Positions 1-64,000 of a stretch of DNA of 64,000 nucleotides are shown here, one piece after another; position 1 is the first letter of the stretch; every line of letters begins with the position of its first letter. Made by a program: the position numbers and the translations under genes. The notes under the pieces are model-generated. The model saw only the letters and a list, made by a program, of their open reading frames with translations. It made no database searches and was not told where the DNA came from. The stretch comes from Lingula anatina (Eukaryota; Animalia; Brachiopoda), in assembly GCA_051362555.1 (NCBI GenBank), contig CM120640.1, positions 40,774,788-40,838,787 of the forward strand. The letters run 5' to 3'.

Positions 1-5457
<5,457 letters not shown>

Positions 5458-13206: not shown

Positions 13207-15129
13207 AGTTTCCATTTTTCACATTTGTATTGATGATTCTTTTGTGTCAAAGAAAATCCTTACCAACTGATATTCTTGATAATATCGAGTTCATAAGAAT
13301 GTAATACCTCGTTATCAGCTATAAAATTATCCATGCGCTGTTTATAACGCTGATTTGAATATTAAATTATTATTTAAATTAAATTTTTGATGATGTATTC
13401 ACACGGGTTGATTTATTAAAGCCATATCGAACAAGATAACAAGTGTTTTTTCATCCATTACTAATATATGGGAAAAATTCAAAGAAAATATGTTTGAAAA
13501 AAATCCATTTTAAATGTGAAGTCTGTACATTGCATCACATGAATTACTTGATTCAGCAAATCCCTCCATTGCATTAATAAGGTAATCTTTTTTAAATCTA
13601 GGTAAAAGGGGCCATTTTGTGATCCAATATGTTTACATCCCAATGGATGTAATTGCAAAATTCAATTCAGATTCGAATAATTGCTACAGTGTGACAGTGT
13701 AGCACTCATTGCTGATTTGATTATAGTGAAAATGTCTTAATCACTTTCCCGCTGAAAACATGGGTGTGGGCACTTCATATGTCATGTTTGCTTGCCTAGT
13801 TAACGTAAAAGCAGTTCTGAAGGCAGATTCTAACTATCAGCAGAAACAATAAAATATGCTACTCGGACACGATTCACAAAGTCAGTGCTACCCATAAGAC
13901 AAGACATCTGATTTATCACATTCCCTGACCCTGAGAACATAGGTGTAGACACTTCATTTGTCATTTTTGCTTGCCTAGTTACAGAGATACAGAAGTAAAA
14001 CAGTTTTTCAGTAATGGCGATCCTAATTTGCATATTTAGGAAAATTGCGTAAATCTAATTCTAACAGAAACATCTTAATAATGTTCCTCGACCCTGAAAA
14101 TATGGGTAAAGACACTTCATTTGTCATGTTCACCTGTCTAGTCCCAGAGATATTGCAGAAAATAGGAAATCTGGCGGCCATTTTGTTTTTTTGCAAATTA
14201 GACCGTTAAAAACACAAAATTTCGCTTGGGAACCGGGTAAATCGGATTCAGCATCCCAAAATTATGCTAATAAGCCTGGTTCCCAACTTTTACCCCAAAA
14301 TGCCCCTACTATTCATCTTTTGTGGATATCCCACTAGACTATGAGATAGTTTGTTCTTATTGAGCCCTCACAATATAACTGGAAACACGACTTGTCATTG
14401 ACTCATACCAGGACCCCCGCGTTCTACTGCTGATGTCAATTTTTCGATCGTTGGCACAAACAATGTCAATATTTCATTAGGATTTCAATGTAACTCGAGC
14501 CCCAGTCAATATTGTAGACGTTGCTTTTTATCGGGTTGCAATTACTGCAAGTCATAATTTTTACTGCAATCAATGTCACTTTGGTAACTCCATTATTCGA
14601 AATCCTAAAGAAGAAAGTTGTTTGTTTTTGGTGGGATATATGTGTTAAAGATCCTTTTCTGTTTACAGCTGCCATAGAGAATTCAACATATAAGTTGTGC
14701 TGTGAATCATTACGCGATCAAACAATTACGTGCAAGAGTTATTAATGTTTTGCATGCAACAGTAATCAATTAACACGAGTAAGGTGTATACAGGGCGAGC
14801 TAGCAATGTCATAAAATTTTCAACAGCAGGACATCACCCTTTTTTTGGGACTGTAGGAAGTAAGTGAGGAAAAATCTTATTTTTCTATTAACACACTAAC
14901 TCATTAAAGTCGGTATCCTCTTTACATAGACATCTGTGTCAATCTTTTTGGTGAAATATAATACAACTGCGGCTGCAACTTAGCGTTCTGTCTAAAATCA
15001 GCTTGGTATGGAACAGGGTCGATGAAATAGTCTTAATACCGACCAAATAATCATGAAATTTAAATGCATGTGCATACCAAGCATGATGATATTAATAAAA
15101 TTTAAAAATCCGTTTTTCAGGGCGTTACC

Positions 15130-18100: not shown

Positions 18101-18627
18101 CTGGCGAGAGAAGACGTCGGGCGAAGAAAAAAAAGAGCAAACAAAAAGACCAAAGAAATGAAACTAAAGTACCAGCATCAACATCGTTTAAGCCCATAGA
18201 AAACGTTAATGAGGTGGGTTCATCTCCACAAAATCCATCTGAAAACAATCTGGCCACAATCAATGCAGAACAAGAGCGGTCAGAAATTGAAAATGATGAT
18301 GATCAGTGCGCCAAAGAATATGGAGAAGAGGAAAGTCAATACCATGCCAATGAACTTAAACAACAGATCAATCAGAAAAGCACTCTGACATTTCCGTGTG
18401 AAACCAATGCAGTTCCGAAAGATGTCAAATCAAGACATAAAGGAAAGCATTTAGAATTAAGAAGCCAAATGGTGTCGACTCTTCCACAGGTTGAAAGCAC
18501 TCTTCCTTTTGACCAATCTGTGACAAATACAGAATTTTGGTTGAAAGACAGTCAGCAGTATTCAGAAAATGAAAAAGCATCTTTGCTGTCTGAAAATAAC
18601 ACAGATCAAAGTGCCATGGAAAATTAA
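15130..18627 (+). CDS. TRPV: TRPV-family cation channel, 1165 aa, intronless CDS
   Basis: Ankyrin repeats (ETPLHHAA, YAGQTALHIA, GRTVFHTL, GLTPLTLAAKLG), six TM segments, pore TLFKLALGLAD, S6 YILLVNMLIALLSET, TRP box WKLQR, long low-complexity C-tail. Acceptor ttttcag at 15114-15120 suggests a 5'UTR intron. Confidence 0.95.
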   Translation: MSNSATECPSNGIESHSISHGSQMLAEKIADHMEEINSPRSIEDMNESFNRCLSSPNPYDAVKFKNALFKAASLNDCDRLEALVELIKRKDIPITDFYREGNETPLHHAATFSNHSVMEILVTEYPDMVHEQRNKGALYAGQTALHIAVARRDLYAVKMLLSRVSLATSDQNCVSGVDDKKNTNKTKKIRNKETLLHAKVVGDEFVGTCMEAELVLAIAAWNADLQMVRELLNQGALPYKRDSKGRTVFHTLVYLASMEGPKSSGVVSESTQNAKMSSHKSNIIKETLRLISSLEKTKTAHEKLGKVTDSISDSLCEAGPSIEITDKIKEALRELSSVGHYTASKTKVIKENLSTLASMEQVTTPVENDNRDRIKETFQELLDKTDISDMPQVFASDPQKKRAYIQAYLLSLRDAQGLTPLTLAAKLGVHGLFEHIINLENTYKFLDDTDVVNDIYLYDVTDIDSAVRFNDRTSALERIPFDKPEEAFIFMELSPIREMVSAKWKEYRKYYFLWGFFHLLAMVAITLCCCFRPLDLEPQSVLNPNVSRSIGQAAFSHLTQMYSKPIDILRATFEISFGTSCFFILSFEVIYETIIHKHFPFINRILGNGTYRLTYIAFTFSTVLTFLFRLFAYHYEEIPMVAMLVSGWYFTLFFTRGFKKFSFFTVMIQKVFFGDLFRFSVVFIVLLSAFSSAMFVSFQNVPEKIPEEFADYLSTIFTLFKLALGLADIEVLSQTRRPWLTIVLFLLFVVLAYILLVNMLIALLSETCSVVAKNKTAQWKLQRLSITLLIERRLPKRLRKSCGTEKYLKVFRNPPGDGQMDDLVHQSAALAMSFLRIPAMQKRIFQRVKAAPSSSSNSYVTALNRITTDWLNRIHATNFTSRETNNMNKKTTARKHVKANGVLKKAINQVLPSYGNVSTSSPTENCLKTNNLTVSVNPTAMAISMRDNMLSTIPKLNDSLEIASVDKNIGENLKKGQQTKQEHFQKDLHETGERRRRAKKKKSKQKDQRNETKVPASTSFKPIENVNEVGSSPQNPSENNLATINAEQERSEIENDDDQCAKEYGEEESQYHANELKQQINQKSTLTFPCETNAVPKDVKSRHKGKHLELRSQMVSTLPQVESTLPFDQSVTNTEFWLKDSQQYSENEKASLLSENNTDQSAMEN

Positions 18628-24272: not shown

Positions 24273-38358
<14,086 letters not shown>

Positions 38359-44700: not shown

Positions 44701-45602
44701 AAAACTGTTATTTACGTTTATTCAGAATATGCCGTTTTTCACGTATGCATCAACAGCAGTGGCATTAGCCCGAGATAAAGTAAGAATTAGTGTCTGTTAA
44801 TGGCATTTTTGTTAATATTAATGAACACAACGGAACCCATAAGTGCTAACATTGCAAAAACTGTATAGCGTGAGTTCTGGATAAACGTGCAGTTTCTCGA
44901 AAATACCTAACCCTATCTTCGACACAACATTATTATCTCTTGCACCCTGCATTTTAAATGAAGCGGGTGATTCACTTTTAACAAGCAGATACTTGTGAAA
45001 GAAGACAGCCTGTAGTATGACTTGCTTCTCTTTATTTTGAAGTTTGCTTTCTTTGCGCTCTGATTTGAGTTTTTTCCTCATTTACCTCCGATTCCACTCT
45101 TAATCAGTAATCAACGGCTTTGTATTTTGATCAAGGTCAGGAAAGTGTTTGATTTCGAAAACAATATTCACATCAAATATCAATCCAGTAGGCGTCCGTC
45201 GCCTTTATTCTGGAACAAAGCCCGGGAAATGCTTACTTTCATACCAAATTACGTAAATTAGTTAAAATACTACTGAGCAATGAAGGACCGTAAGCCATCA
45301 GAATAAAGAAATGAATTAATCTTATTGTGCTTGAACACTTCAATTCCGCTTTCCGTGCCTATTCAGACCATCGACCCTGGATGATCTTTCTTGCGGTCTT
45401 TTCTTCTTTCATGAGCTAGACCCTAATTCAGACGTAATCTGTCTTGGCTGCGTACTGACTAACCCTCGTGCACCGTTCTTAGTCGCGCCGAGATTACATC
45501 ACGTCTCTTTTTACGGCAAAGAAACCAGAATAATCACCAAACAAATAACCCACTGCATGTCAATTGCAGTTGTTGAGATAGGAATCCGGTAGTCGTGTTG
45601 TA

Positions 45603-47314
45603 TCACCACAAGGGCCAACGATAATAGAGAGCCCCGCTCTGTCCTTTAAAGTCTGTGTTAGAAACTGGAACTTTAAGGACGCAGCATTTAACGTCTGTAA
45701 GTGACCTGTCACCGAGAGAAAATGCCTTAAACCATTTCCTTGACTTGGTGTGGTAGTATTCCACGTCCAGAACGCAATGGTCTGGGTTGTCAGGACGGTG
45801 ACCGCCTATTAGGTAAATTCGGTGACCTGTGTTTAAGATAGTAATGCATCTTAAAGAAATAGCATACTACTTCTTACAGTCTTCTACATAAATAAAGTTG
45901 GCCTGGTTAACACAGAGTAAGGAAACAGTACATAATAACAAGCTTAATCTACAGTATGATACACCTAAATATTGACTTGACAAAAATGAAGATATTGATT
46001 TATGCGTGTTATAATGATTTTCCTTGTTTGCCTCTTGGTATGAAGTTCCATTAAACATTTTCAGTACAATTTCTTTAGATCATAGTATCGTTATGCTAAC
46101 AGTCATAACTTACCTAGAGTTATGACACCTGCGCCAGTTCTCGGTTGCTGCAGGGAAATACATTCACAGCTAAGATGAAGGTCTTTAGCCCGTCGTGTAG
46201 TCTGAGAGAACTTCCCAGATTTTAGACGCTCAGTACATTGATCACCTAAAAAATACAAACAAATAGTTTTCGTACCACTATGCCCAATCGATCAAATAAA
46301 AAACGTGCTGGTAATTTATTATTTTAGCTAAGACGGGCCTTAACTGTACCTTCTACCGGGGTGACAGAGAGATTTTTTCCAGATATACACAAATCTTCGT
46401 CTGTGTACATTTCTGTACTGTGCAAAAGTTTTTGTAATTAATTAATTAATCAATTAATTAATTATTTAATTTATTTATTTATTTATTTATTTATTAAATA
46501 TGGCAGAGAGCACTATTAATGTTTTTGAGAAGTCTTCGTGTATCCTGGGGTCAATTTCATAAAAAAAAACTTGTGTCAAAAGTAGGTCTTAACTTCAAAC
46601 CAAAGTTTTTTGTCTGTTATACCCAGGATAAATTCGTTCAAAAATGTTTATATAACTGTCCATCTGAAACAAAACGCTAAAGAAAACTCCTCAAAAGGGT
46701 CACTATTTTCTCATTTAGACGGATCGACTAGTACTACTGATTTATCCTAAGTCAAAGTAGACTGATACTCTTGTTTTCAACTTTCGAATCGACTTATCTC
46801 GTGAAAACGGTTCCAGATTCCAGTCATTAGCTGAAGGAACTGAAGGAATGAGTGATTTCAAAGGGAGAGAAGATTTGATCTCCTGCTCTTTTACGTGCGC
46901 TTTAAAATGATACCGAACACTTTAATTTTTGCCCGGGTCATATTCATACAACGAAAGCAAGTAATAAACGTGTTGGCTTTATATGCAGCGGGCTCCACAT
47001 GCAATAAGTGAAACAGTAAACCAGCCTATGAGGTCCTCTATGATGTAACATTCTCCACAGGTATATGTCCTACCTGGCGTTAACGTGTCCGGTGAAATCT
47101 GTTTATGTGATAAACTTTCTGAAGTATCTTCAAGTCGCGGTCTTTTTGATCGTTGTTCCAGAAGCGAGGCGTCAGACGGGTTCGACTGAGACGGTACTTT
47201 AGGCAGAAAATTGACCTTAGTTGGGTCTGGAGGAAGAAAAAGTGCAATTACAATGTGAACGAGCAATCGGAACCCCCCTCCTGCCCCCTCTCTTTCTCTC
47301 TTTCTCTCTGTCTT

Positions 47315-47356
<42 letters not shown>

Positions 47357-49207
47357 CACGTCTGTCATTATACTTTGATTTAATTGCTATTTCTAATAAA
47401 AACCATTGATTTACCTCGGAATATGTACAGGACATCTCTGTGTATTGTGCAGAGAAGGTTGTCTTGAACCAGAGGAAGTAAAGTTTCCTGTGACTCCAGT
47501 TCAGACCACACATACTTAGGATCTGCCTGGAACCCGGACGGCCATTTCTTTTCGAGAACCCTAGAGTTAAAATTACAGAAAAATATACATACGAATTTAT
47601 TTGCGAATTTAAAAAATAGTGAGAACCCACCATTTATTTGATTAATCTGATTTTATAGCAATCAAATGATTGTCGGAATAGTATAAACGTAATAAAATTT
47701 TACTTTTACATACGCCAGAACGTCTTTCATATACGAATTATAAGATCCAACAGTGATCATACGAAAATAGCAACAATAAATAATTATAAATTCAAACTTT
47801 GTATGCTACTTAGCATGGGGTAAACGTCCGTATTACTACATTTACCATATGTTATTGGTTTGCCTTGGTTTGAAATGTTTTCCTGTGCTTCCCCCTACTA
47901 AGACTACCTTGTCGCGCCACGGCAGGAGACAATGGTTGCGACGTATTTTAGGTATTGGATCCTCATCTAACCACTCATTAATGAAGGGTTCATATGTCTC
48001 ACTGGCATCAGTAGCACAGGTCCCTTGCGGGATCTCGCCGCCTTTAAGATGCAGTCGAGGTTAATACGTAATTTAGGTATGTATTTTTTTCAATCTATTT
48101 ATCTATCTAATATGAAATATTTAACAGTATATATCTGATAGAGTCCGATTGCGATATTCTTTTTTCTAAAAATCTGTTTTATCTGTTGTCATTTCAAAGA
48201 GCATGTGCTTGTTTTTCGAATAAATATTATAATTGTTTAAAGAAAAAATTGAAAACACATCCATGCATAAAAGTTACATATATACTTCTTATTAAATCAA
48301 AAATGCAAGGAAGAAACGTTGTACTTAAACAGATATCCAAAAGGCTAATCGTTCCTTTTTTTAACAAAGTTAATGATGTTAAATATACGTAATAGAAAAT
48401 TGTCGTTATAACATGAAAATGTATTATTTGTTTTTATTTTTCACCTGGACTTAGCATACGTTCCCGACTCCATTTCAGTGAACGGCAAACTTATATGCTA
48501 ACTTATATAAGTTAGACTCACTTGTACACATAAAAACAGTGCTCAGATACGACCTACCTGCAATGTATATCTTTCCATCAAATGTACAAGCTGCGAAATT
48601 CCACCGCTTTCTCCTCAAGGGCGCGCTGTCTGCCCACTTATTAGAAGTAGGATCAAACTTAAGTACCTGTCGATAAAGCGTTTTCTCCAATAAGTAATTA
48701 CCGTTATTTGTTTGACACGGATAAATCAAAGTAATAAGCTTTACCAGACTGCCAAGATTACTAGTATTAGCTGTCGATTTGAGCTATGTCAAATAAAACA
48801 TAATCTCTATGATTATTATTTGGAATAATAATCTATCACTGTTGCCTCCCTTTCCGTGTCCCCCAAACCAAACATTTTCTTCGACCAAATCAATATATAC
48901 GTATTATATCATTTACCTCTTTCTTTCTCCGACCGTTTGCTTTCTTCTCTTTCCCTCCTAATATATACAGTTGGTTTTTTAATACCACTGGCGTAAAATC
49001 TGTTAGGTTTCGTAGCTTTGGCCAAGTGACGTAATTCAGTTTTGGTAAGATCGTTGTCGTTTTCTTGGGATCTACGGTCATGTAACCGACTTTGACATCT
49101 CCTCCGTGGCGCGTGAATACAAGGATAAATTTATAATATTCGTTGTTTGCGTCACTATCCGTCGAAAATTCACGTAGTTGAGGTAGCGGACCTGGCGCGG
49201 TGGACAT
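45603..49207 (-). CDS. Kelch-repeat protein without BTB domain, ~416 aa
   Basis: Exons 48917-49207, 48558-48666, 47846-48041, 47415-47560, 47074-47226, 46114-46245, 45603-45826; phase-compatible, 1251 nt. Kelch blades LYILGG..FDPTSNKW, IYIAGG..YEPFINEW, VVLVGG, IYLIGG..VEYYHTKSRKW. Confidence 0.85.
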
Positions 49208-51613
49208 TTTGCAAGAATGAATTAATCGTAGCTGTACAATCCAATCAAGATTAAGCCTTAATTAAATGGGCATTTTTCATGTGCTGCCTACTCTGGTGTT
49301 ATCGGTATCCTGCCGCATACTGTCGTGCGGGGGTTCTCAAAAATTTGTTCACTGATTGAATATTATTATCTAACAACAAATAACGGTTAATGTGCCCCTT
49401 CGGTAAATTGATATCTCATTAAAGTTGAAAGGGGATTTTACAGTCTATAGAACGCTTCTGATACTTATATGTACGCGGGATTATATTCAAGAAGTGCATG
49501 AATTTTTCAACCCTTTTCCAGAAACAACATAAGAATTCTATAGTGTGGTTCGATATCATTGTTAAACGTTTACGAAGGCTTCCTTAAAACACACTTGTAT
49601 GTTAGGCCTGTTTACTTTCAAATGGATTTTCTATAACAAGCTGTATGATATGGATTTTGTTTGAATAGTTATGCATGAGGTTATAATATGGTGTCTGTTT
49701 TATAATCCTTTCCATGGTTTCAACTCTATTGATTTCTCTTTGTTATTATCAATTTATCGACAAATTATATCACAGATCTCTGACTATATCGCACATCATA
49801 CCTCCAAACCCAGCCAAGCATGTGCTTATTCTTAACAATATCCACTTATCACCAATCACATATATTTTCCGATTTTTGCACAAACCAACTATGTAAAATG
49901 ATGTCGTTTTTATTTTTGGTTCTTTTTAATAGTCACTGGATGAAAATGCGTTTTTTTTTCAACATTGGTACAATTTCGATAATTTTATCGTACTTAATGA
50001 GGAGTTAGAAATTAGAAATGGAGAAATACGTGGTGATATAACATTTGCCCAACGGTTCTGCACCTGCTCGTTCCATACTTAAACCGGCATTTGTAAAATT
50101 TGAAGTACATTCATCGTTTTCATAAGCGAAAGGTGCTCGGTGAAAACTAATTATGATCGCGTTTTCTAGAACTCCTCTATTATAAAGACGTGATGTCCAA
50201 TTTTTTTATCGTTTTTTTTCTTCCGGACAAAATATCCTTAGCCACCCCTTGCCATTGCGTGTCTCCGTAAGCACTTTCCATTTGTGTGTTAAAACAGCGT
50301 ATGCAGTTCAAATGCGTTAGGAAACAATGCTTGTCCACGACAAAAACCGCTTCGTGTACAGATGGATTTAATTTCAACTCCTTTGCATTGAAACAACAGA
50401 ATATTTTTCTCGTCGTAAAATCGGCTGTGACAGGTGATCCAGGACTCGCCATCGTCATCAATTTACAACGAATGCATCCATCTTTTCAAGCTTGCTGTGA
50501 CGCAACAGCCGAGCTGTACAAGTGACGCATTGGGAGACATTTCAGTGCACTAATAACCGATATTTCTCCCATCGTAATATCCACGTGACCCCCACCCCGA
50601 GTCGAGCACCGACTGAAATAAATATGGTTCACCATTTCCGTATAATTCTAAAACTTTTTTTCACTTTTTCTTTTCGTGACAAGCGATTAAATTACCCCCT
50701 TCCCCTGAACATTGCCGATCCTTTTTAAATCCACTTTCGGATGGTCTCAGAGACCGAATTTTAGTCAACGTCCCTTCCATTATAACTTCCTTTAGATTCA
50801 CACATTTGGTTGCGTGGGGGATACATATTTAATCTAGAATTCTCAGACTCGTATATTAAAGAAGACGGACCCAGTCGCTGGTTTGTTTCCTTTTACTTCT
50901 ATGACACCGACTCAAAAAAAACTTAGTGTTCTGTATTCTATATCATCCATTTAAATATCTCAAAATGAAAAAGAAATCTTCATGTTAAACGAAAGCAAGA
51001 TTTGCAACATAGGGGACAAATAAATTAAGAGAAAATTTTGCTGCCTACAAGTTCTATTCATATCATTTATATACAAAAATGTTTAAAAATAAATGGAACA
51101 TCATATATATCTTCTGTACATCAAGTGCTGCCTTTGAAGCTCCTTTTTGTATTCATACTTACATCTTGCTTGGCTACTTATACTTTAAAGCAGATTATAT
51201 GTATTTTACAAAATGACCATTTTCTCTTTAAAAGCAAAGGGATTAATAACCACTTCAATTTTACGAAGGTCTTTCAAATTGGCATTAACAATATATATGG
51301 ACATGCACTTTAGTTGGTTCCATGTCACATTTGCTCTAAACTCATTATGCGCTATACTTAAATAAAAACAACACTGATCAGTTACCTATAAATTTCAGGT
51401 AGAGGTAGAATAAAACCAACTAACAATATATATTTGATAAAAGGTAAGAAAACCCCATGGCATATTTACATCCAGTACAATATTAAAGTTTCTCATGAAA
51501 ATAAATAAAACAAACAGAAAAAATTCTGAAATGACACAAATCCCCACTGATTCAACTCTCCACCACACAAGGAAATAATAAATAATTCAAATATCTATCA
51601 GGATAATGCCTGC

Positions 51614-53332
51614 CTATAATATAATGCATCTTCCAGCCTCCTTTGCTGAAGGTGACACAGGTGAAGGAGAAGATTTGACAGACTTTTCTGGAGAAGGCTT
51701 CTTAATGGATGGTGTGAATGGAAGTGGAGTGGTATAAACTGGAGTGTTTCTTTTAGGCGATGGTGTGGACTTGGGTTTGACAGCTGGTGTCATGGCTGCA
51801 CCCGACCTGGCAGGAGTTTTAGGATAAAGTTTGGCTGAAGGTGTCTTCACATTGGACACATTCACTTTCTTTGCAGATTTGTTACCTGGTGTCTTGGTGG
51901 TGACTTTCTTAGCTGGCGTCTTCAGCGGTGTCTTTGTTTCTTTAGCAGACGTAGATGGTGATTTGCTCCCAGAGCGTTTGGGAGAAGATCTTGATTGCGA
52001 TGGACTAGGATCCTTGGAGGAGATCTTGGCCTTTTTGGGAGGAGAAGCCTCTGCAGATTTCTCCGGAGATCTCTTTCTCTTTTGTGCAGACTGTGCAGGT
52101 GTCTTGTCAGCAGCAGGTTTACTTCTTTTCCTGGTGGATGCAGGAGTCTTAGCTGCTGAGCTCTTACGTGTGGATGCAGGTGTTTTAGCTGCTGAGCTCT
52201 TTCGTTTAGATGCTGGGGTTTTGGAGACTGGGGTCTTGCTCCTAGATCCAGGAGCTTTTCTTGCTGGGCTTTTGCTCCTAGTGGGAGATGCTTTACGTTT
52301 TCTGGAGCTTGCGCTTGCTGGAGTGACTGAGCTGGGTATTTCAACAGCTGCAGGTGTCCTTGATTTTTGAGACTTTCTGCCAGATCCTGGTGTTTTGGCC
52401 TTTGCAGGAGATCTGGCCCTGGAAGGTGTTTTTTTCTGATACACTGAGGCCCTCCTAGTTCTGCTGGACACAGCTGGGGATGTTGGTTGCTGAGACACTG
52501 GCTGACGTGTGCGTGTTGCCGGTTTCTTGAACTTTGGAGACCCTGGTTTTGCAGCAGTTGCACCTTTCCTCTGGTAGATAGATGACCTGAAGCATTTAAA
52601 AAAAACTTGTTTAATCAAATATCAGACTTCTTAATACAAGCACCTTGTATGGAAATAATTAACCAGACATGGCTTCTTATTTCAGGGAAAGTTGGAAATA
52701 AATACTGCAACTTTGAAATGTAGATTTCAACAGTTGTGCAACCTTAAAAGTCACTTTATGCTAATTACAACAAAGACCTGTCCTTGACTCACAAAGTGAA
52801 AGACAAAAAGGATCAAGCATACAAACTGCGTACCTCCTAGTATTTGGTCTTCTTGGGGGTGTTTTTGGAGATATAAAAAGAGCTGCTGAGCCACTTGTCC
52901 ACCCAGGTGACTTTGAGGGTGAAGATCTTGATGCACTTTTCTTTGTCTTAGGTGAATATACCCTTAAAGAATAATGAATAAAGATAGTAATGACAATAAA
53001 CTTGTTAAACAAAAGTGATATTTGTCTTATTTCAAGAAAACAATTTTGAAGTGATGCATTGAAAAAACTGCATATCAATTAAATTATGCATTGTTAAAAA
53101 TGTGTAAAATTTATTAATAAAAATTCACCCTATGTCACACTTCATGACCATGTTCTCAAACACCCCCCTCCCCCTTTTTAGCCAAGTTGCCTGCTTTGGC
53201 GTACCTCGAAAGTGCTGCTGCTTTAGCACCATCCCTAGAAGGGATCTTAGAGGGCTTAGCAGGTTTGCCTACACTTTTCCTGCGAGATGCAGCACTGGTG
53301 CGCTGTGGGGTTTTCCCACTTCTTGGTGGCAT
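51614..53332 (-). CDS. Basic S/T-P-rich disordered protein, 409 aa, with bipartite NLS and C-terminal CaaX (CIIL)
   Basis: Exons 53205-53332 (MPPRSGKTPQ...), 52834-52962, 51614-52586; both introns phase 2; 1230 nt. Many [S/T]P-x-K sites; KRKRSPEKSAEASPPKKAK; ends EAGRCIIL*. Probable non-coding first exon with donor at 54314-54315. Confidence 0.85.
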
Positions 53333-54399
53333 TCTAAAATAAGTAAAAAATATATAAATGGAAAAACTTAAAAGAAGATCTGTTTAAAGGTATATATGAA
53401 CCGAGCATTGGTGGAGCGTGGATTCCCAGTAACACATATAAACCACTTCTACTAGTTTCTTATACTATTATTATAAATTCAACATGCCAAGGGATAAACT
53501 GAATAAATCACTAGATCAGCCATAAAAGAGCTTTAGACTGCTTTCTTTAAATTTTTGGTCAGAAATTTAACCTACTTTCATGGCCTACTTTTCTGCCCCA
53601 TTGACATACAGCACTGAATGCTAGCAGAAAAATCCGTTCAAATATAATTTTCAGGTAAAATTAAACAATGCCTTTTGGTAATTCTCTTAGTTATATACTT
53701 AAAACTACATGCAGGCATTTAGTTGGCTTTTGTGGCAAAAAAAATTACTTCATATGCATCTTTAAACAATGATATTTAGAGTATCTAGATCATTCATTAA
53801 ATTAAGCTGATCAAAAGCATGTTAGAAGTTCTGCATTCCTTAAATCAGGATAAATAGAGAAAGGGAAATGTGCTTTTAACACCCTGATTTTTTTAGCTGG
53901 TTTACCAAATAAATGCACAATAACAATTAATTGTCATACTAGCTCAAATATTGAAACTCATTCGGTGTTGGGTGGTGGTGGTGGGAAGGGGGGGGGGGGG
54001 TCAGCTACATTGTATTTAAGGCACTTCTTAATTTATAGAATCAGATAAGATTCATTAATGTGCTGCACATCCCTGATGAAATTAATCTATCTGCTGGAGA
54101 AAAGAATGATTGGCATTATGTTACGAAAATAACAGAAATCTAAATACTATAAATTTACAAAAAGGCACTTTGTTTACAAATTACAATTAATCAAGAAAGA
54201 CCTTATGAACGACACTGTCAAAGACATTATAAATATGTTTAACACTTATCCGCTGGTTTAAATGATTAACAACTGAGTCTTTGAACACATAGTGAAAATT
54301 AAAACTAATTGATACCTTATGGTACGTTATATATCCTTTGAGTAAACTTATCAGCTGGTAAACCACATATCCCGCTCAGAGTGTAACGAACAACGACGC

Positions 54400-54770
54400 C
54401 AAAAGCATGACCTGAGATCTATCCGGAAATGACCTTTGACACATACCATATTTAGACAATTATCCTTAATGGGTCAAATAGCAACCAATCAAAATGGAAA
54501 ATGTGAAAATTCAAATTTGACCATTATGGCCTAGTTAGAGTAATATATTACTCCGCTTTGTTTTCATCTGTACAACCATATTCTTTATAATATTTTAAAA
54601 CCTCATTTTAAATATTTTGAGTATCATTTCGATTCAGAAGGATAAATGAATGGTGACGTGCAGAACAAGACATCTTGATATCTGAATATCTGAACTAATT
54701 TTTCGAACTATTTTGGCACGGAAGCAAGAAGTTGCGGTTAACCGTTTCAATTTTTGCGCGGAAAGGAGAG
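54400..54770. promoter_or_regulatory. Bidirectional cell-cycle-type promoter
   Basis: Lies between two divergent putative 5'UTR exons (donors at 54315 on - and 54883 on +). CCAAT 54485; CHR TTTGAA on - at 54510-54515; MYB-like GCGGTTAACCGTT ~54734-54746; TTCAA 54746-54750; E2F consensus TTTCCGCGC on - at 54756-54764. Confidence 0.6.
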
Positions 54771-56011
54771 TTCGAGACTGGATTATAAAATAAAATCGCG
54801 GTAATTTCCCAATACCGAGCACTCTTGGAGCTCGGATTTTAAGATTTTCAAGTACAACTTTACATTTGGGATTTCATGTAGGGTAAGTAGCACGTGTACC
54901 CAGAAAGACTAGTCGTAAACACGCTAAAATAGCATAGGGGTCTATATAGTATTTAGACTGCAGTGTTACAACTAATCTGGTGAACCACTCCAGTTTGCAC
55001 ATTATGAAGGTCACCAGTGTCCATTTTACTTTCCTTACGTCTATTAATGTGGATTCCTCGTGTTTTAGTTTGCTAAATATTTAGTCCAAATTGTATAATA
55101 GATTGAAAATAAGAACAGATTTTCTTCACCATAAGTAAACGAACATTCATCATGCCATACATGTAACCTGACTGCCATGAATAAGTAAATTTTACAAAAT
55201 TTTGCAAGCTTGTCAACCCTACGCTTAATTATCAATAACGTCACTCTTTTCCATGTGCAGAATTTTATTGTAAATAAGCTTGTCATGTAAATTATTTTCA
55301 ACGATCATTGTATTTGCATTTTGATTGACTAATCATTACCTTTGTTTGCATTCTTGTATTCATTTGTAATGCTTTTTTTTTTGTTGTTGTTTTATTGGAA
55401 AGAAAAATGCAAATTAAAATATTTGCTACTCATTTTTGTTTTTGAGATGATGATGTGAAGGTGAAAACACCTGCTTTGAAAATCATTGAATTTGAAAATC
55501 CAAGCTTTTTGTACAGATGCAAGCAGTGGTGCAAACCAATGTCAAATATTAGTTCACTTTGTTACCACAAAGATAACTCTATTAATTTGTGATTTAAAAA
55601 AAGCAGTATATGCCAAACTCTTATTAACATACTGGCCCTATAATATACCAAGGTTTTTTTTTTGTAAATGTGAAAAATTGAAATTGAAAATTTGTGTTAA
55701 AGTAAGTCAACACAATTTGTAATATAATGACTTATTAAATGTTTATCACTACTTTGAATACAAAGGTAGAAAAAGGAAATATAATTTAGTTATGTACAAT
55801 CTATGCAGAATGCTCTTATAATGTGGGTTTTTAGTCTTATAGAATTTTAATGCTAACCATGTTGTTCTCTCTGAAAAGCAAAAGTCTTTTTTCTGAAGTG
55901 AATGAAGTGGACTTGTCAGTAGCTTTTAGACCAAATAGTTATTAATTATATTCCAAAAGTATGTTACAAAAATACTAATGTTTAAAACTGTTATTTTTTT
56001 ACAGAAATAAA

Positions 56012-59000
56012 ATGCTTTATGGAAAAATTGTTGTAATTAAGAGAAATGGTGCAGATGGGGCCCATTTTCCACTGACAGCGACGTCATGTTTGATTGGAAG
56101 GTAAGTTTAGACCAAAGTAATATTCTCTTATTTATCAGTTTGACTAATGGGTGCATTTTTGAAATATTAGATATAACTATTTAACTGTCTGGTTTGTATA
56201 TATTGCTTATAAATGAGGCATTTGCAGCTAGTAATTTCCCTGCATTCATCATATTTAGAAAAAAAGGATCAGAATGTTGGAAGTGTGATCTTGTTACAAG
56301 CTAATTTCTTTTTATACTTGCATCAATATGGACATGAAAAAAATAAGTGTATGGCAAAAGAAAATTTGCCATCTGTTATTATTACCAAACTGACCAACTT
56401 ATGACTTTGTCTCATGCCCAGTGTTTTATTATTGCCTTTTGCAGAAGTAATGATTGTGACATCAGGATTCAACTGCCCAATGTTTCCAAGGAGCATTGCA
56501 AGATTGATGTTAATCAGGAAGGGCAGGTTGGTTATTCATGCAACACCTATCTATTATATGAGTCAAAGCACTTTTATATGTAGGATATTGCATTCAATAT
56601 GAATTGATTCAGATAGATGATGAAGGGGAACAGCTGAAACAATTTTCCACAATGTTTAAAACTGCCCTAATACTAATGGAGCTGAAAATCTTTTTCAGAT
56701 TTTTGTCACTAATTTGAGCACTGTGAATCCAACAATGGTAAATGGAACCTCCTTAACCAAGACCATGCTGATTGGGCACAATGATGTTTTCACAGTTATA
56801 GATCGTTCTTTTCGGTTTGAGTTCCCGCCTGGATCACCGTACAGAAATGTATCCCCATCAAAGGCAGTACCAGCTAAGATTTTAACTCCCAAGGCAAAGA
56901 GCCCAGCACCTTCTAAAGTTTTGACACCCATGGTATTTTCTTTGCAAATTTTTTATATAAGCACACGATTTGTATTTGGTTAAATGAAAAAAAAATCTAG
57001 TTACGATAATTGATCCAGCTTTTCAATGGGCTAATTATCAAACCTTCAGATACATATTTTTAAAATCACAAATTATATTTTTATATAGCATTTTTTGTCT
57101 TTTTACTTTATAGAACAAAGCTATGTAGTAACCTGCTTTTTCATTTTGTTGTTGCCACTCATTGGAAAGTTCTAATTTCAAGAAATTGTGACTTAAAAAA
57201 ATACAGAATCTGTAAAATGCACAATTTTCCTCCATTGAAAAGATCAAGTAACTACCATATGTTTTATCAAAACTTAACATTGCAGTTGGTAACTTTTGTT
57301 ATTGATATTTAATTCACCACGCTTTCAGAAGAAGCCTCCAACTCCCAAGCCTACTGGAGTTGAAAATGTAGCCCCTCAAACTCCAGGTTCAGCAAAGAAG
57401 ACACCTGTATCTAAAGGAAGATCACCTTCTCCGAAAAGACCAGCCACACCCAAGGCTGCTACACCTAAAACAACACCCAAAGCAGCTGCTCCTAAAACAA
57501 CACCTAAGGCTGCTACACCTAAAACAACGCCTAAGGCTGCCTCTCCAAAAGCTGTTACCCCTAGGGCTACACCTAAAGTTGCTACGCCAAAAGCCAACAA
57601 CAAGGCTGCAACACCCAAGGCTTCCCCTAAGGCTGCTACACCCAAGGCTTCCCCTAAGGCTGCTACACCCAAAGCTTCCCGTAAGGCTGCTTCACCAAGA
57701 GCTTCCCCTAAGGCTGCAACACCAAAAGCTTCCCCTAAAGCTGCAACACCAAAAGCTTCACCCAAGGCTGCTACACCAAGAGCTGGTACTCCTAAGGCCA
57801 GCCCCAAGGCTGCCACTCCTCAGGCTCTCACGCCTAGAGCAGCTTCTCCTAAGGCATCCCCTAAGACCAGCCCTAAAGTGAAAACACCACAGCGGAAGGC
57901 AGTGTCTCCTCAAGGTAAATTTCTGAAGGTTGAACAGCCCTCGACATACATACTGGTGATGGTTGTGTTTTGCAATTGGTTTGTTGGCCGGGCAAGTGAA
58001 ATTACCAAGCAGTTGCATTGAAATGCATGGGACTATCAGCTGCCTCGCCCTTTTATTCTTCAATTAATATTTATGTTAATATATTAGTCACTACTTATAA
58101 ATCAAAATTTTATTTTTAGAATAATAGGTGGAAATTGCATGATTTTTATCAGTTATCATTAATTTCCTATTTTAATTCTCAAGTGACACAGCTAAGACTT
58201 TTAAAGGGTGTTTGTTCATTTCAGCCACAACTCCTAAATCTGCTGGAAAGAGAAAATCTATCTCCAGCCCTAAATCTCCATCCCCTAAGAGAATGGCAAG
58301 TCCAAAGAAAAGTCCGAAGAGGTTAAGTGCTGGTAAAAAGGTATCATAACACATTTGGTTGAATTGAGCTTGAAAACATTAGACTGTGCATAAAAAGGAT
58401 AACAACTATTCATTTTGGCCAAAAAATAAACTTTCCTGGGGTAAACAACGATTTCCCCATACTTACTAATGGTTAATGAATCCATTTCTACATTCAAAGT
58501 TAGTCCCTGCTTTTTTTATAAAAATTTTGTTTTTTTGTAATAATCTCTTAAGAGATTATTACAAAGTATAGCCTTCAATGGAGGTCACATGGTTCAATGG
58601 CAAGCACAGATTTAAGAATAATTGCTATAACTGCCGTTTTTGTGGTAAAATAGAATATAATATATTTCTATGAATTGTTTACAGTGTATTTATTGTGAAA
58701 TATAGATTTCATACGAAGAGTTGTTATCCCTTTAACTTGTTAGATATCCAAATTTTAAATATTTTGATATTTATTGTACCACCAGCGTTAGCGCTGGCGG
58801 TACACATGGTTTCGGTCCCGTCCGGATCGTTCCGCCGGCTCCGCCGAACGGCTACCGTTACCGCTTCTCCTCCTAGACGGTAAGGGCCCCCGTACCCATC
58901 TCATGGATTTAGGTCACCTATAATCTCAACTCGTTCCACGTAAAATTTAGGCTTTGTCGGTATTGGGGTCTGGGTGTGGCACTCATTGCAATGCACCCTT

Positions 59001-62000
59001 GTCTAAAAATGGCAAAATTAAATGCTAATTATCTACCCTACGGAAGGAGTTATGGGAAAAATTTCTATAGCCGGCTTTCCAAAAGTCATATGTGTAGATT
59101 TCAAATATACCCTTGGATTTGACCTTTGACCTCTACTTCAAGGTCAAATGGGCCAAAATTTTCAAAAAAATGAAATTTTTTACGAAAAAATTTTTTTTTG
59201 CCCTGTTATTCACACACCACACAGACTTAACCAATAATATTATTGGAAAGTGTTACCCTTCAGGTCATCTTTCATCTCCATGAACTTGGGGTCAATCGGT
59301 GCATTTTCACGGGAGTAGCGGCCATAAGATACCGAAACTGAAAACTGTCTCTAATTCGGGAACCGTTAATGCTAGAGACCCATTCTTTTTTGCATTTTGT
59401 AGAGCATGTAAAGCCCAACACTGGAGGTGGTCTCGGTTTTTTTGTATTCCATACGGTTTTCGAGTTACGCTGTATCAAAAAGTACATATTGGTGGTAAAA
59501 GCAAAATGTGCAGTACGGTAATGGATAATAAATTTTGAACTCTGGAAAAATAAAACATAAGGCTTGGCAAAGCAGACAACTTGTGTTCAAAAATGACATT
59601 ATTTCATCAAATTTGAACTTCTGAAACTTCAGAGCACCTCCTATTTCAAGAATTTTGACCAAAATGACATTTTCTTTATTTTAATTAATTTTTTCTGTAC
59701 GAAATTTAAGGCACATTATGGTAACTCCAAAATTATAACATCTAGTCCCTTATATCTCCAAAACTGGCAGAGATAGGTCCATAGTTACTATTGAAGTTGA
59801 ATAGGAAGTCATATACTGGCAATCTTACTATGACCTTGAAATTGACCTTTGACCTACTTTTCACCATGAACTGAACTTTGCAAATTTTTCTTCCCTTTTA
59901 TCTCCAAAACTGGCAGAGATAGGTCCATAGTTACTATTGAACTTGAATAGGAAGTCATATACTGGCAATCTAAATGTGACCTTAACATTTTTTTTTTGCA
60001 AATTTTGCTTTCCTTTTATCTCCAAAACTGGCAGAGATAGGTCCGTAGTTACTATTGAACTTGAATAGGAAGTCATATACTGGCAATCTATATGTGACAT
60101 TAAAATTGACCTTTGACCTACTTTTCACCATGAACTGAATTTTGCAAATTTTGCTTTCCTTTTATCTCCAAAACTGGCTGAGATAGGTCCATAGTTACTA
60201 TTGAACTTGAATAGGAAGTCATATACTGGCAATCTAAATGTGACCTTGAAATTGACCTTTGACCTACTTTTCACCATAAACTGAACTTTGCAAAATTTGC
60301 TTCCCTTTTATCTCCAAAACTGGCAGAGATAGGTCCATAGTTACTATTGAACTTGAATAGGAAGTCATATACTGGCAATCTAAATGTGACCTTAAAATTG
60401 ACCTTTGTCCTACTTTTCACCATAAACTGAACTTTGCAAATTTTGCTTCCCTTTTATCTCCAAAACTGGCAGAGATAGGTCCATAGTTACTATTGAACTT
60501 GAATAGGAAGTCATATACTGGCAATCTAAATGTGACCTTGAAATTGACCTTTGACCTACTTTTCACCATGAACTGAACTTTGCAAACTTTTCTTCCCTTT
60601 TATCTCCAAAACTGGCTGAGATAGGTCCATAGTTACTATTGAACTTGAATAGAAAGTCATATACTGGCAATCTAAATGTGACCTTGAAATTGACTTTTGA
60701 CCTACTTTTCACCATGAACTGAATTTTGCAAATTTTGCTTCCCTTTTATCTCCAAAACTGGCTGAGATAGGTCCATAGTTACTATTGAAGTTGAATAGGA
60801 AGTCCTATACTGGCAATCTAAGTGTGACCTTGAAATTGACCTTTGACCTACTTTTTATCATGAACTGAACTCTGTTTATTTCTTTCTCTTTTAACTTCAA
60901 ACTTGACAGAGATAGGTCCATAGTTACTCTTGAACTTGAATAGGAAGTCATATACTGGCAATTTACTGTGACCTTGAAATTGACCCTTGACCTACCTTAC
61001 GAAGAACTTAAATTTGATTGTACCATATATATTTTTTGCAATAGTTTAAAAATTCTTGTTGATTGCATTTTTACAGCTTGTCAAGCACAAAACTGGTGGC
61101 TGTGTCCCTTATTTTGTGTATGTGGGGGTCTATACGAATGCGTTTGCTCCAGCTGGTGGTACAATATTTGGAGGCGGTATCGCTTCTCTGATCCTCTAGT
61201 TTTATTTGTTTGTTTACAGACTTCTCCTTTTGGTAGTCCCAGGACACCAAAGGTTGCTGCCCTTAAGCTGGGGATAACTGATTTACGCAGGCGTTCTCAG
61301 CCTGTAAAAGAGGTCGATGAGGCTGAAACAGTTTCGCCAAAAGTGACACCCAAAAGGGCATCCCCTGTGAAGAAATCTCCAGGTAAATCACCAAGTAAGT
61401 GTGTTTTATTATTATGTTTATTTTTATTATTATAATTATTACAGGTAAATGCTTTAGTTATTCTTATATTGATAACCATGATATAGCAGAGATTTATATT
61501 TTACATTTAATATTTAGGCAAAACTCCAGTATCAGGTCGCAAGAGAAAAGCATTTGAATTGCCTAGCCCTGCTCCGAGTGCAAAAAGAAAGAGTGTGTCT
61601 TTTGGCCCAGCACTTAGTCCAGAGCACTTTGATAAGCGTCTACCACCAGCAACTCCAGTTAAGAAGGGTGCAACACCAACCAGAAGACTTTCCGAGGGAG
61701 TGTACCAAAAGAAGGGAACCCCTAAAACTCTCCTGAGAAGATCCATTGCCACTCCTAGAGTTGCATCTATTGCAGAAAGTCCTTCGCCAAAAAAGACCCC
61801 TAAGGCTAAGACTCCATCACCAGCAAAGCGAGCATCCCCTAAGGCTAAGACTCCATCACCAGCAAAGCGAGCATCCCCTAAGGCTAAGACTCCATCACCA
61901 GCAAAGCAAGCATCCCCTAAGGCTAAGACTCCATCACCAGCCAAGCGAGCATCCCCTAAGGCTAAGACTCCATCACCAGCAAAGCGAGCATCCCCTAAGG

Positions 62001-64000
62001 CTAAAACCCCAGTGAAGACTACTCCAAAAGCAAGGACACCTTCACCTGCTAAACAGGCTACTCCTAAGGTTAAAACTCCTCCAACTGTTAAGAAAGCCAC
62101 TCCTAAAGCAAGGACCACATCCCCTGCCAAGGTTAAAACTCCCTCACCTGCTAAGACTCCAACTCCAGTTAAGTCTGCCAGTAAGGCAGTATCTCCCAAA
62201 GGCAAGCCAGCAACACCCAAGACCAAGACACCGTCACCAGCTAAGAAATCAACACATAAGGCTAGGACACCATCTAAGGCATCTCCAAGGACTCCTAAAG
62301 GGAAACTAGCAACCCCAAAGGCTGCTACACCCAAGGCTAAAACCCCTGCACCAGTTTTGACATCACCTGCTTTGAAGAAAACTCCAAAGGGTAAGACACC
62401 AGAGAAACATGTTCATGTGTTAAAGCCCATCGTTCTTCACCATGAAATGTCTCCAGAAGAAAAATTCTTGAAACACAAACAAGAAGTAGAAGAAGCTGCT
62501 GCTCTCAAACGATCATCTCGTAAATCTACTTCACCATTCAAGCGTTTTCCACAAGTTTCACCAGTGGTTTCTGTCAAGGGAGTGGCTAGGCTATTCAGCA
62601 CCCCAACACCCAAGAAATCTGCAACTCCTAAGAAGTCTCCAGCGGCAACCCCTAAGTCTGCAAAGAAAACCCCCATTAAAAAGAGTCCAGTCAAAAAGGC
62701 AACTACACCTAAGGCTGCTAAACCTGCTACACCAAAAGCAGTCACTCCAGAAGCACTGTCAAGCCTTGTTGATTTAATGGAAACCCCTAAGGCAAAGACA
62801 CCTAAAAAGGCAACGCCCAAGGCTAAGTCACCATCTCCAAAGAAGAGAAGAGCCAGCACTCCAGTGGGAACAAGTGCTAAGAGAAGGAAAGTAGCACCAG
62901 CAACTCCAGAACCTTCCTCGGCTAAGAAACTCAAAACTCCAGCATCAGACGTCAAAAAGGCTGTTGCACTGAGAGCCATTCATGGGAAATCTGCAACACC
63001 CAAACTGCCCTCTTCCATGAAAAAGCGAGCAACTCCTGCTAGGACTCCAAGAGGATCCCGCACCCCCAAGTCTTCTGTGAAGAAACCTAAGACTTGGGCA
63101 GATATTGTGAAGAAGGGAGTGGCTGTCACAGGTGTTGTTGTGCAGAAACCTGCTCCAAAACCAATGAAGGTGAAGGTTGTTTCAAAGAAGGCTAAAACTC
63201 CTGCCAAGGCCAAGTCCGCCAAGGTATTCATGATAACACCAGTAAATAAAATGTTAACTAGTAGTGGCATAAATATTTAGAATTTACAGAAATAATTATT
63301 TTTAAATTTATTTTATGTATTGTTAGTATTATTATTTTATGCACCTTGAAGGGGAAGTCCAATTTTACACATGTAAAATATGATGATAAAAGCCCTGAAG
63401 TTGGATTCAAATTGCTTTTGCTATTTTTAGAAAGCCCCCAGGACTCCAGCTGCAGTGAGAGGCCAAATATCACATACTGGACATGCTACCTCCCCAGCTA
63501 CCATTCTGATCCATAAGAAACTGTTGAAGACACCCAAAACTGCACCTAGGAAGGGAAGAAAGAGTCCTATAAAGGTAAATTCACATTTTCAAATGAAGAT
63601 GGATTTTTAAATGATGTGATAGTGTGATAAAAAGTTTGAACTGGGTTGTTGACAGCATTCTTTTCTGTACATGGGTTTTGCTACTCCTAGCATTATGTTA
63701 ATTATTGTTAATGTAGCAAAATTAAAGATTTTCTAAACATTGGTTATTGTAATGTGCTTGTTTCAATGGAATGTATTTGGTGCATAATCCATTACTTCTC
63801 CACAGCCTGGTAAGAAGATTGATGCTGCAGATGTCAGTTTCACTGGTATTCAGGACATTTTCAGCACTCCAAAGAGTGCAACTCCAAAGTCAACGAAGAA
63901 GGGACTTACTCCATATTCTGACCTTCCTAAGACCCCTGAAGGTCCAGGAATGATGTTTGTGTCCCCTATGACAACTCCTAGGCCTGCATCAAAGAGACCA
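56012..64000 (+). CDS. MKI67: Proliferation marker protein Ki-67 orthologue (3' end outside the window)
   Basis: Exons 56012-56100, 56445-56526, 56699-56932 (FHA: IKRNGADGAHFPL..GRSNDCDIRIQLPNVSKEHCKI..NPTMVNG..DVFTVIDRSFRFE), 57329-57914, 58225-58340, 61220-61394, 61518-63223 (PP1 motif KRKSVSFGPALSPEHFDKRLPPATPVKKG; KTWADIVKKG), 63431-63574 (TGHATSPATILI), 63806-end (FTGIQDIFSTP). Phases consistent. Confidence 0.95.
57440..57880 (+). repeat. Coding minisatellite, ~27-bp unit (KAATPKASP)
   Basis: Imperfect 9-aa tandem units in Ki-67 coding exon 4. Confidence 0.85.
58770..61200 (+). mobile_element. Non-autonomous Helentron/HINE (DINE-1-like) with central tandem array, in a Ki-67 intron
   Basis: Subterminal inverted repeat TATTGTACCACCAGC (58772-58786) / GCTGGTGGTACAATA (61152-61166); 5' fold-back GCTGGCGGTACA; 3' hairpin GGAGGCGGTATCGCTTCT; end CTAG-TTTT; T-rich insertion site. 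Confidence 0.8.
59753..60995. repeat. 146-bp tandem repeat array, ~8.7 units
   Basis: Units start at 59753, 59899, 60017, 60163, 60309, 60455, 60601, 60747 and ~60893 (degenerate); the second unit is shortened to 118 bp. Confidence 0.95.
61799..62003 (+). repeat. Coding minisatellite, 39-bp unit (PKAKTPSPAKRAS) x5
   Basis: Near-identical units at 61799, 61838, 61877, 61916 and 61955, plus a partial unit. Confidence 0.92.

What the first reader, a model, noticed from the sequence alone, without database searches (positions are those of the whole stretch)
51614..64000. Ki-67 is head-to-head with a Ki-67-like, NLS+CaaX (probably prenylated) protein: candidate membrane-anchored partner or paralogue
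Seen: a 409-aa basic, CDK-site-dense protein is transcribed divergently from Ki-67, with putative first exons only ~350 bp apart. It shares short motifs with the neighbouring Ki-67: RRSSIYQRKGAT and RRASVYQKKTP versus Ki-67 RRLSEGVYQKKGTP; SGSAALFISP versus the Ki-67 motifs KGVARLFSTP and TGIQDIFSTP; RRKSVG versus KRKSVSFG. It has no FHA domain but ends in CIIL and carries a bipartite NLS. Established: NLS plus CaaX targets proteins to the inner nuclear membrane (B-type lamins, Drosophila Kugelkern); Ki-67 coats mitotic chromosomes and influences heterochromatin-lamina contacts. Inference: a co-regulated two-gene module, soluble Ki-67 plus a lipid-anchored Ki-67-like chromatin tether released by mitotic phosphorylation, possibly from an inverted partial duplication. 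I do not recognise a described gene like this.
Basis: partly seen in the sequence, partly recalled or inferred. Interest (0 to 1): 0.85.

Follow-up and report, generated by a model that had tools for sequence, protein, structure and literature searches.

The report
Lipid-tailed basic protein beside Ki-67
An invertebrate gene that sits back-to-back with the cell-division marker Ki-67, and is high or low in the same RNA samples, encodes an unstructured, strongly basic protein ending in a lipid-attachment signal, which likely anchors it to the nuclear membrane, where it would hold chromatin until mitotic kinases release it; descent from Ki-67 is only weakly supported.

Summary
The gene is real. 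RNA reads confirm four exons on the minus strand, a 409-aa frame ending CIIL-stop with no listed splice joint that removes the end, and a start about 330-400 bp from that of a genuine Ki-67 (FHA, PP1-binding domain). Both genes are high in 3 of 8 RNA runs and low or absent in the other 5 (3 studies; rho 0.69, P 0.06). Allelic differences are mostly silent (10 of 14), so the protein is under selection. It is predicted disordered, has net charge +93, 15 full CDK sites and a bipartite NLS pattern; CIIL is a published geranylgeranylation signal. 'Ki-67 paralogue' is weak: no FHA, RVxF or PP1 domain, no true Ki-67 repeat motif, no composition-corrected alignment, no DNA trace of inversion. Only short motifs, chiefly a twice-repeated RRxS[IV]YQ[RK]K, beat shuffles. 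No homologue was found, but the same searches also missed this species' own Ki-67. Best reading: a proliferation-linked, prenylated polycation at the inner nuclear membrane that works like Drosophila Kugelkern without being one. Localisation, prenylation and chromatin binding are untested.

The parts
54316..54410 (-). Gene X exon 1, non-coding (upper end is an estimate, 54390-54430)
   Evidence: RNA joint 53333/54316 in 6 of 8 runs; start estimate
53205..53333 (-). Gene X exon 2, ATG at 53332; holds RRKSVG and SKIP
52834..52962 (-). Gene X exon 3 (43 codons, phase 2 on both sides); holds SGSAALFISP at 52866-52895
51614..52586 (-). Gene X exon 4, coding part: disordered, S/K/P/A/T/R-rich, 12-aa KTPAS repeats (52134-52222)
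52565..52586 (-). Motif copy 1, RRSSIYQRK (aa 85-93, begins in exon 3)
52430..52456 (-). Motif copy 2, RRASVYQKK (aa 130-138)
52025..52081 (-). Bipartite NLS-like pattern, aa 255-273
   Evidence: pattern match; untested
51614..51628 (-). CIIL plus stop: CaaL prenylation signal
   Evidence: covered by reads without a listed joint; CIIL geranylgeranylated in yeast lysate (PMC2192637)
51040..51613 (-). Gene X 3' UTR; a candidate end near 51040 with TATAAA about 30 nt before it, some reads to about 50900
   Evidence: tables 2 and 6; sequence
54410..54770 (.). Shared divergent promoter interval, CpG-richer than the window (o/e 1.64 at 54600-54799 against 0.5); CCAAT, CHR-like and CRE-like words present but not above shuffles
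54770..54882 (+). Ki-67 exon 1, non-coding (lower end is an estimate, 54755-54795)
   Evidence: RNA joint 54882/56005
56005..56932 (+). Ki-67 exons 2-4 (56005-56100, 56445-56526, 56699-56932), ATG 56012, FHA domain
57329..58340 (+). Ki-67 exons 5-6 (57329-57914, 58225-58340), basic TPK/SPK repeats
   Evidence: joints; model
61220..64000 (+). Ki-67 exons 7-10 (61220-61394, 61518-63223, 63431-63574, 63806 to beyond the window); PP1-binding domain 61583-61732 with RRLSEGVYQKKG at about 61682-61717; three Ki-67-repeat-type motifs

Best explanation
The minus-strand gene is a spliced, selected protein-coding gene that starts 330-400 bp from Ki-67 and is high or low in the same RNA runs; its product, predicted to be disordered and strongly basic, is likely geranylgeranylated at CIIL and likely reaches the inner nuclear membrane through its NLS, where it would bind DNA or nucleosomes through S/T-P-x-K repeats and let go when CDK1 and Aurora-type kinases phosphorylate it. 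Shown: gene structure, divergent arrangement, retained CIIL, purifying selection, expression pattern in 8 runs. From established knowledge: CIIL directs geranylgeranylation; NLS plus CaaX acts at the nuclear membrane. Inferred: prenylation of this protein (about 0.8), nuclear-membrane location (about 0.5), chromatin tethering with mitotic release (about 0.35), shared promoter control (about 0.75). It is best seen as a Kugelkern-like, non-lamin prenylated nuclear protein made in proliferating cells, which shares one short motif with Ki-67 rather than being a recognisable paralogue.
For: Three introns and an unspliced CIIL end in reads. Junction reads X/Ki-67 (first three joints each): X12 82/73, X13 121/81, X14 115/63, X15 0/2, X16 0/0, X18 10/0, X19 8/6, X20 15/0; Spearman 0.69, P 0.06; the kelch gene on the other side has depth 0-0.3 in 4 of 4 runs laid. 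10 of 14 listed coding differences of the P5 runs are silent against 26% expected, pN/pS 0.14, P 0.0005; 2 of 2 listed coding indels are 3 nt, 3 of 3 listed UTR indels are 1-2 nt. The only Cys sits at -4, followed by I-I-L (2 of 100,000 shuffles). CIIL incorporates geranylgeranyl in vitro and is the yeast Rho2 tail (PMC2192637, PMC11304957 passages). GFP-NLS-CaaX acts on the nuclear membrane, and Kuk was the only non-lamin farnesylated nuclear protein named in that 2010 paper (PMC2947476 introduction). The last 15 residues carry net +1, so there is no K-Ras-type polybasic patch next to the cysteine. No hydrophobic segment (best 19-aa hydropathy 0.11), disordered by charge-hydropathy, AlphaFold single-sequence pLDDT 46 with no secondary structure. 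15 CDK and 12 Aurora/PKA-type sites.
Against: No direct evidence on location, lipid or binding. Co-expression rests on 3 studies of unknown tissue and misses P 0.05; runs X15 and X16 have no single-copy positive control (mostly reads of intronic repeats were laid), and a shared promoter explains co-expression without any shared function. The NLS pattern is easy to meet at 25% K/R. The published NLS-CaaX cases seen are farnesylated, this tail is CaaL. No orthologue was found, so conservation of CIIL between species is unknown; variant tables were cut (69 and 175 rows not shown), so a variant in the tail is not excluded. Promoter words are not above shuffles. An SKIP motif points to a microtubule-end alternative.
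Confidence: 0.45

Rival explanations
1. The protein is prenylated but works outside the nucleus: a geranylgeranylated polycation at the plasma membrane or endomembranes that binds microtubules (basic S/P-rich body, SKIP motif for EB proteins) and is switched off by CDK1, like a cortical or spindle-linked cell-cycle MAP.
For: SKIP at aa 28-31 in a basic, Ser/Pro-rich context (the SxIP/EB rule is recalled); CaaL tail; overall charge +93 would favour acidic membranes and tubulin tails (inference); CIIL-tailed SNAREs reached the plasma membrane in yeast (PMC2192637 passage).
Against: S-x-I-P arises in 20,614 of 100,000 shuffles, and an Asp follows it closely; no polybasic patch next to the cysteine; several NLS-like clusters.
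Confidence: 0.22
2. Gene X is an old, inverted partial duplicate of Ki-67 that lost FHA and RVxF, kept and doubled the motif just behind the PP1-binding core, and gained a CaaX.
For: RRxS..[VI]YQ[KR]K occurs twice in X, once in the neighbour and in none of 8 other Ki-67s or 1 unrelated protein; short-window similarity to the neighbour is reached by 0 of 60 shuffles, to the reversed neighbour by 23 of 60, to 8 other Ki-67s by 3-46 of 60; X aa 51-94 aligns in register with the PP1 region (12 of 200 shuffles); adjacency and similar composition; Repo-Man shows that Ki-67 has been duplicated before (PMC8354752 section 3).
Against: No significant whole-protein, profile or DNA similarity; family-wise 62 of 200 shuffles reach the best 60-aa window; Ki-67 repeat motif not met; window lengths and motifs were chosen after seeing them; short kinase-site motifs converge easily. 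This rival concerns origin and is compatible with the best explanation.
Confidence: 0.25
3. X is a soluble basic chromatin or germ-line protein (histone-H1-tail-like or sperm-basic-protein-like); CIIL is unused or incidental and co-expression only reflects a proliferating or gonadal sample and the shared promoter.
For: Composition and S/T-P-x-K repeats resemble H1 tails and invertebrate sperm basic proteins (recalled, not tested); tissue of the high runs is unknown.
Against: The single Cys at -4 with I-I-L is very unlikely by chance; no Pfam family in exon 4, so no H1 globular domain there.
Confidence: 0.1

Closest known systems
Drosophila Kugelkern (Kuk)
   Same: Non-lamin protein with NLS and C-terminal CaaX; Kuk sits at the inner nuclear membrane (PMC2947476, introduction and passages read).
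   Different: Kuk has an N-terminal coiled coil needed for function and is farnesylated; X has no predicted structure, a CaaL (geranylgeranyl-type) tail, charge +93 and dense CDK sites. Not aligned directly; searches returned no Kuk.
B-type lamins
   Same: NLS plus CaaX.
   Different: No rod or Ig-fold tail: no Pfam family and no PDB match for exon 4, pLDDT 46.
Ki-67 (MKI67) and Repo-Man (CDCA2)
   Same: Disordered, basic, CDK-site-rich; shares RRxS..[VI]YQ[KR]K with the neighbouring Ki-67; expressed in the same runs.
   Different: No FHA, no RVxF, no PP1_bind profile match, no Ki-67 repeat motif; none of the 8 Ki-67s fetched ends in CaaX.
FOXM1/RHNO1 head-to-head pair
   Same: A cell-cycle gene with a co-expressed divergent neighbour on a bidirectional promoter (PMC8104967, search listing and start of abstract only).
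   Different: Different genes; only the arrangement is alike.

Membership tests
Ki-67 family (gene X) | N-terminal FHA domain | tested here: not met
   No Pfam hit in exon 4; the 86 aa of exons 2-3 are low-complexity and do not align to the FHA
Ki-67 family (gene X) | RVxF motif and PP1-binding domain | tested here: not met
   No RVxF pattern; profiles of 8-9 PP1 regions score X at shuffle level
Ki-67 family (gene X) | Ki-67 repeat motif (G-phi-x-x-phi-F/M-x-T-P) | tested here: not met
   3.0 bits against 17-26 for the neighbour's motifs; 169 and 291 of 2000 shuffles reach it
Ki-67 family (gene X) | Sequence homology beyond composition | tested here: inconclusive
   Short motifs above shuffles; alignments not
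Ki-67 family (plus-strand neighbour) | FHA, PP1-binding domain and Ki-67 repeat motifs | tested here: met
   the C-terminal LR domain would lie beyond the window
CaaX-prenylated proteins (GGTase-I type) | Terminal C-a-a-L retained in the mRNA | tested here: met
   CIIL as substrate
CaaX-prenylated proteins (GGTase-I type) | Actual lipid modification | not testable with these tools
   needs labelling or mass spectrometry
Kugelkern | N-terminal coiled coil and conserved C-terminal block | tested here: not met
   No helix predicted in exon 4 (single sequence); N-terminus is Pro/Ser-rich; no Kuk among search results
Kugelkern | Inner nuclear membrane localisation by NLS plus CaaX | not testable with these tools
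   patterns present; needs imaging
Lamins | Intermediate-filament rod and Ig-fold tail | tested here: not met
Pds5-binding YSR/PIM proteins (Wapl, Sororin, Haspin) | [KR][ST]YSR or K/P-S/T-Y-S/T/G-K/R | tested here: not met
   Consensus from PMC8198109 passage; none of the five Tyr contexts of X fits

The most novel reading that the evidence does not exclude
A spiralian lineage made a membrane-anchored offshoot of Ki-67: an inverted partial duplicate on the same promoter that kept Ki-67's basic CDK-switched body and a doubled YQ[KR]K motif, swapped FHA and PP1 binding for a geranylgeranyl tail, and tethers chromatin to the nuclear envelope in cycling cells (or helps rebuild the envelope on Ki-67-coated chromosomes).
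Probability: 0.15. Interest if true: 0.85.

Novelty: new variant of a known kind. Interest (0 to 1): 0.5.

Why it matters
Few non-lamin prenylated nuclear proteins are described (a 2010 paper names only Kugelkern). A second, unrelated and proliferation-linked example with a geranylgeranyl-type tail would show that 'basic disordered chain plus lipid' has been invented more than once as a chromatin-envelope link, and gives a small natural construct to test whether a Ki-67-like polycation behaves differently when tied to a membrane. The locus also documents a full-featured Ki-67 in an invertebrate; the review section read describes Ki-67 in vertebrates only, although database entries from trematodes carry FHA and PP1 domains.

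Tried and rejected
Homologue searches for X exon 4: 0 of 7994 candidates at E 0.001; 1 hit among 1.84 billion representatives, a repeat-driven match in an unrelated 1001-aa protein, rejected; 0 in PDB sequences; 0 Pfam families. Simulated collinear relatives at 40% identity would have scored E below 1e-23, but the word-indexed collection also failed to return this species' own Ki-67 at 323-2945 aa or the window's TRP-channel-like protein by exact look-up, so absence says little about lineage restriction. Synteny could not be tested: no whole genome is held; the metagenome scan gave 2 loci of 392 candidates, one a 3-kb fish Ki-67 fragment with 526 bp upstream of its ATG, the other a 30% match not examined. 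The ESM Atlas gave no result. No indexed RNA holder was listed; raw-read runs of the same species label were laid instead. Rejected: fusion to the downstream kelch gene (no reads); PP1-domain remnant; true Ki-67 repeat motif; YSR/Pds5 motif; E2F/CHR/CCAAT enrichment in the promoter (125-1000 of 1000 shuffles reach the counts); D-box or KEN box (none); DNA-level inverted duplication. Literature searches without a described counterpart: 0 papers; 0; 4, none about an MKI67 partner by listing; 2; 122, the 10 listed all on the lung lobe; 7, none fitting by listing; the library lacks most subscription papers and no supplements were read. Earlier scan notes: nothing on this gene by words, sequence, relatives or place. 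No complex prediction was run: both chains are disordered.
Full report
Observation. Reading the minus strand gave three coding exons (53205-53332, 52834-52962, 51614-52586) with canonical splice sites and a 409-aa product ending CIIL-stop; it is 19% Ser, 16% Lys, 15% Pro, net charge +93, with 40 S/T-P and 15 full CDK sites. On the plus strand nine coding exons give 1109 aa of a Ki-67 that runs off the window, with an FHA start (55-75% identical per exon to a fish Ki-67), a PP1-binding domain at E 1.2e-12 and three Ki-67-repeat-type motifs. Its PP1 region finds fish and trematode Ki-67s (8 of 184 candidates). Earlier scan notes on the same genome call the animal the brachiopod Lingula; I did not test that beyond noting that the PP1 core VSFGPALSPE is shared with trematodes, not fish.

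Transcription. Eight raw RNA runs from three studies were laid (8 of the 9 RNA runs offered). Stranded runs X12, X13 and X14 show X on the minus strand with joints at all three introns, including a non-coding first exon ending at 54316, and Ki-67 on the plus strand with a non-coding first exon ending at 54882. No joint inside exon 4 is listed, coverage continues past CIIL into a 3' UTR down to about 51040-50900, and the kelch gene further down has almost no reads, so the tail is not spliced away or fused. Junction counts X/Ki-67 are 82/73, 121/81, 115/63 (study P5), 0/2, 0/0 (P6) and 10/0, 8/6, 15/0 (P7); rho 0.69, P 0.06. This is three independent levels at best, tissues are unknown, the two calls used different likeness cut-offs (92 and 88), and P6 lacks a single-copy control.

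Selection. Of the 14 coding differences listed for the P5 runs, 10 are silent where 26% would be expected (pN/pS 0.14, P 0.0005); two further differences seen only in X18 were not counted, and 69 rows were not shown. The two listed coding indels are 3 nt, the three listed UTR indels 1-2 nt. The frame is therefore kept by selection.

The tail. The only cysteine is fourth from the end and is followed by I-I-L in a protein with 8% aliphatic residues; 2 of 100,000 shuffles end so, and it is the only such end among 250 frames in the window. CIIL was used as a geranylgeranylation signal and took up labelled geranylgeranyl in yeast lysate (PMC2192637, passages) and is the yeast Rho2 tail (PMC11304957, passages). 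There is no polybasic patch beside the cysteine (net +1 in the last 15 residues) and no transmembrane stretch. NLS-like patterns lie at aa 226-242 and 255-273. A GFP-NLS-CaaX chimera acts on the nuclear membrane, and Kugelkern was the only non-lamin farnesylated nuclear protein that paper knew (PMC2947476, introduction and passages). AlphaFold on exon 4 alone gives pLDDT 46 and no secondary structure, in line with charge-hydropathy.

Is it Ki-67-like? Uncorrected BLASTP gives E 1e-33, which vanishes with composition correction (best E 0.31); phmmer scores are negative. Composition-adjusted local alignments are matched by 63, 170 and 119 of 300 dipeptide shuffles at three gap settings (1, 32 and 35 of 300 residue shuffles). 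Short windows do carry a signal: the best hits are IYQRKG/VYQKKG, VYQKK/VYQKK and LFISP/MFVSP, and the top-3 sum is reached by 0 of 400 residue shuffles and 0, 1, 2 and 12 of 400 dipeptide shuffles at lengths 5-8. The signal is strongest against the neighbour (0 of 60) compared with its reversed sequence (23 of 60), 8 other Ki-67s (3-46 of 60) and an unrelated protein (3 of 60). The pattern RRxS..[VI]YQ[KR]K occurs twice in X, once in the neighbour just behind the PP1 core, and in none of the 9 fetched proteins; related words without the Tyr (GISQK, GVSQKKTP) stand at a similar place in one fish and two trematode entries. Against homology: PP1-region profiles score X at shuffle level, the best 60-aa window is reached family-wise by 62 of 200 shuffles, a Ki-67-repeat matrix built from 28 motifs of other species scores SGSAALFISP at 3.0 bits, X has no RVxF, and no DNA inversion trace exists. 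So one short motif is shared above chance; descent from Ki-67 is possible (about 0.25) but not shown. Separately, all five tyrosines of X follow V, I or L (0 of 100,000 shuffles, a pattern noticed after the fact), which suggests a repeated phi-Y binding motif; it is not the Pds5-binding YSR motif (PMC8198109, passage).

Relatives. None was found, although collinear relatives at 40% identity would be seen. The word-indexed collection also missed this species' own Ki-67, so the gap may be one of database cover. Synteny was not testable.

Mechanism. Most likely the shared promoter turns on both genes in cycling cells; X is geranylgeranylated, imported, and held at the inner nuclear membrane, where its basic S/T-P-x-K repeats bind DNA or nucleosomes; CDK1 and Aurora-type phosphorylation (15 and 12 sites) would cut the charge and release chromatin at mitosis. 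Gene structure, selection and the expression pattern are shown; the prenyl signal rests on published substrates; location, chromatin binding and release are inferred (0.45 for a prenylated nuclear-membrane protein of cycling cells, about 0.35 for the full tether model). Rivals are a cortical or microtubule-linked protein (SKIP, met by 21% of shuffles), a true Ki-67 offshoot, and a soluble basic chromatin protein.

Comparison and verdict. It likely works like Kugelkern but lacks its coiled coil and is not a member; it is not a lamin and fails the Ki-67 domain tests, whose definitions come from PMC8354752 (passages and first part of section 3). Searches showed no described counterpart, within a library that lacks most subscription papers; supplements were not read. 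Verdict: a real, apparently undescribed gene with an unusual anatomy and a testable link to proliferation; a new variant of the NLS-CaaX kind; interest 0.5.

Noticed in passing
window 53381-53768: A roughly 390-bp element with 20-nt terminal inverted repeats in intron 1 of gene X (pair I12); draws many partly fitting RNA reads in all 8 runs, so likely a high-copy MITE.
   Followed up: partly
window 59748-60995: 146-bp tandem repeat, about 7 copies at 93%, with 118- and 264-bp variants, inside a Ki-67 intron.
   Followed up: no
window 56012-64000 (+): A full-featured invertebrate Ki-67 with FHA, PP1 domain, a TGHATSP block and three repeat motifs; it is far richer in TPK/SPK repeats than the fish proteins fetched.
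   Followed up: partly
window about 45560-50490 (-): Multi-exon kelch-repeat gene with next to no reads in 4 of 4 runs laid.
   Followed up: partly
window 15130-18627 (+): Intron-less 1165-aa ORF with ankyrin repeats and what reads as a TRPV-like membrane part (by eye); exact sequence not in the collection.
   Followed up: partly
window 26100-27104 and 35035-35355 (+): Exons of a flavin amine oxidase (for the first piece).
   Followed up: no
window 11943-13300: Tc1/mariner-like transposase remnant (paired/HTH hit; pieces).
   Followed up: no
window 1849-2585 (-): MAM-domain exons.
   Followed up: no
window 51614-53332 (-): All five tyrosines of protein X follow V, I or L (VYSPK, IYQRK, VYQKK, LYPKT, VYTTP); 0 of 100,000 shuffles. 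Unexplained; may mark a repeated binding motif.
   Followed up: partly
window 51614-52021 (-): No letter differences are listed in the last 135 codons of X while 13 lie in 52022-52346 (tables cut); may reflect stronger constraint on the tail or a haplotype block.
   Followed up: no
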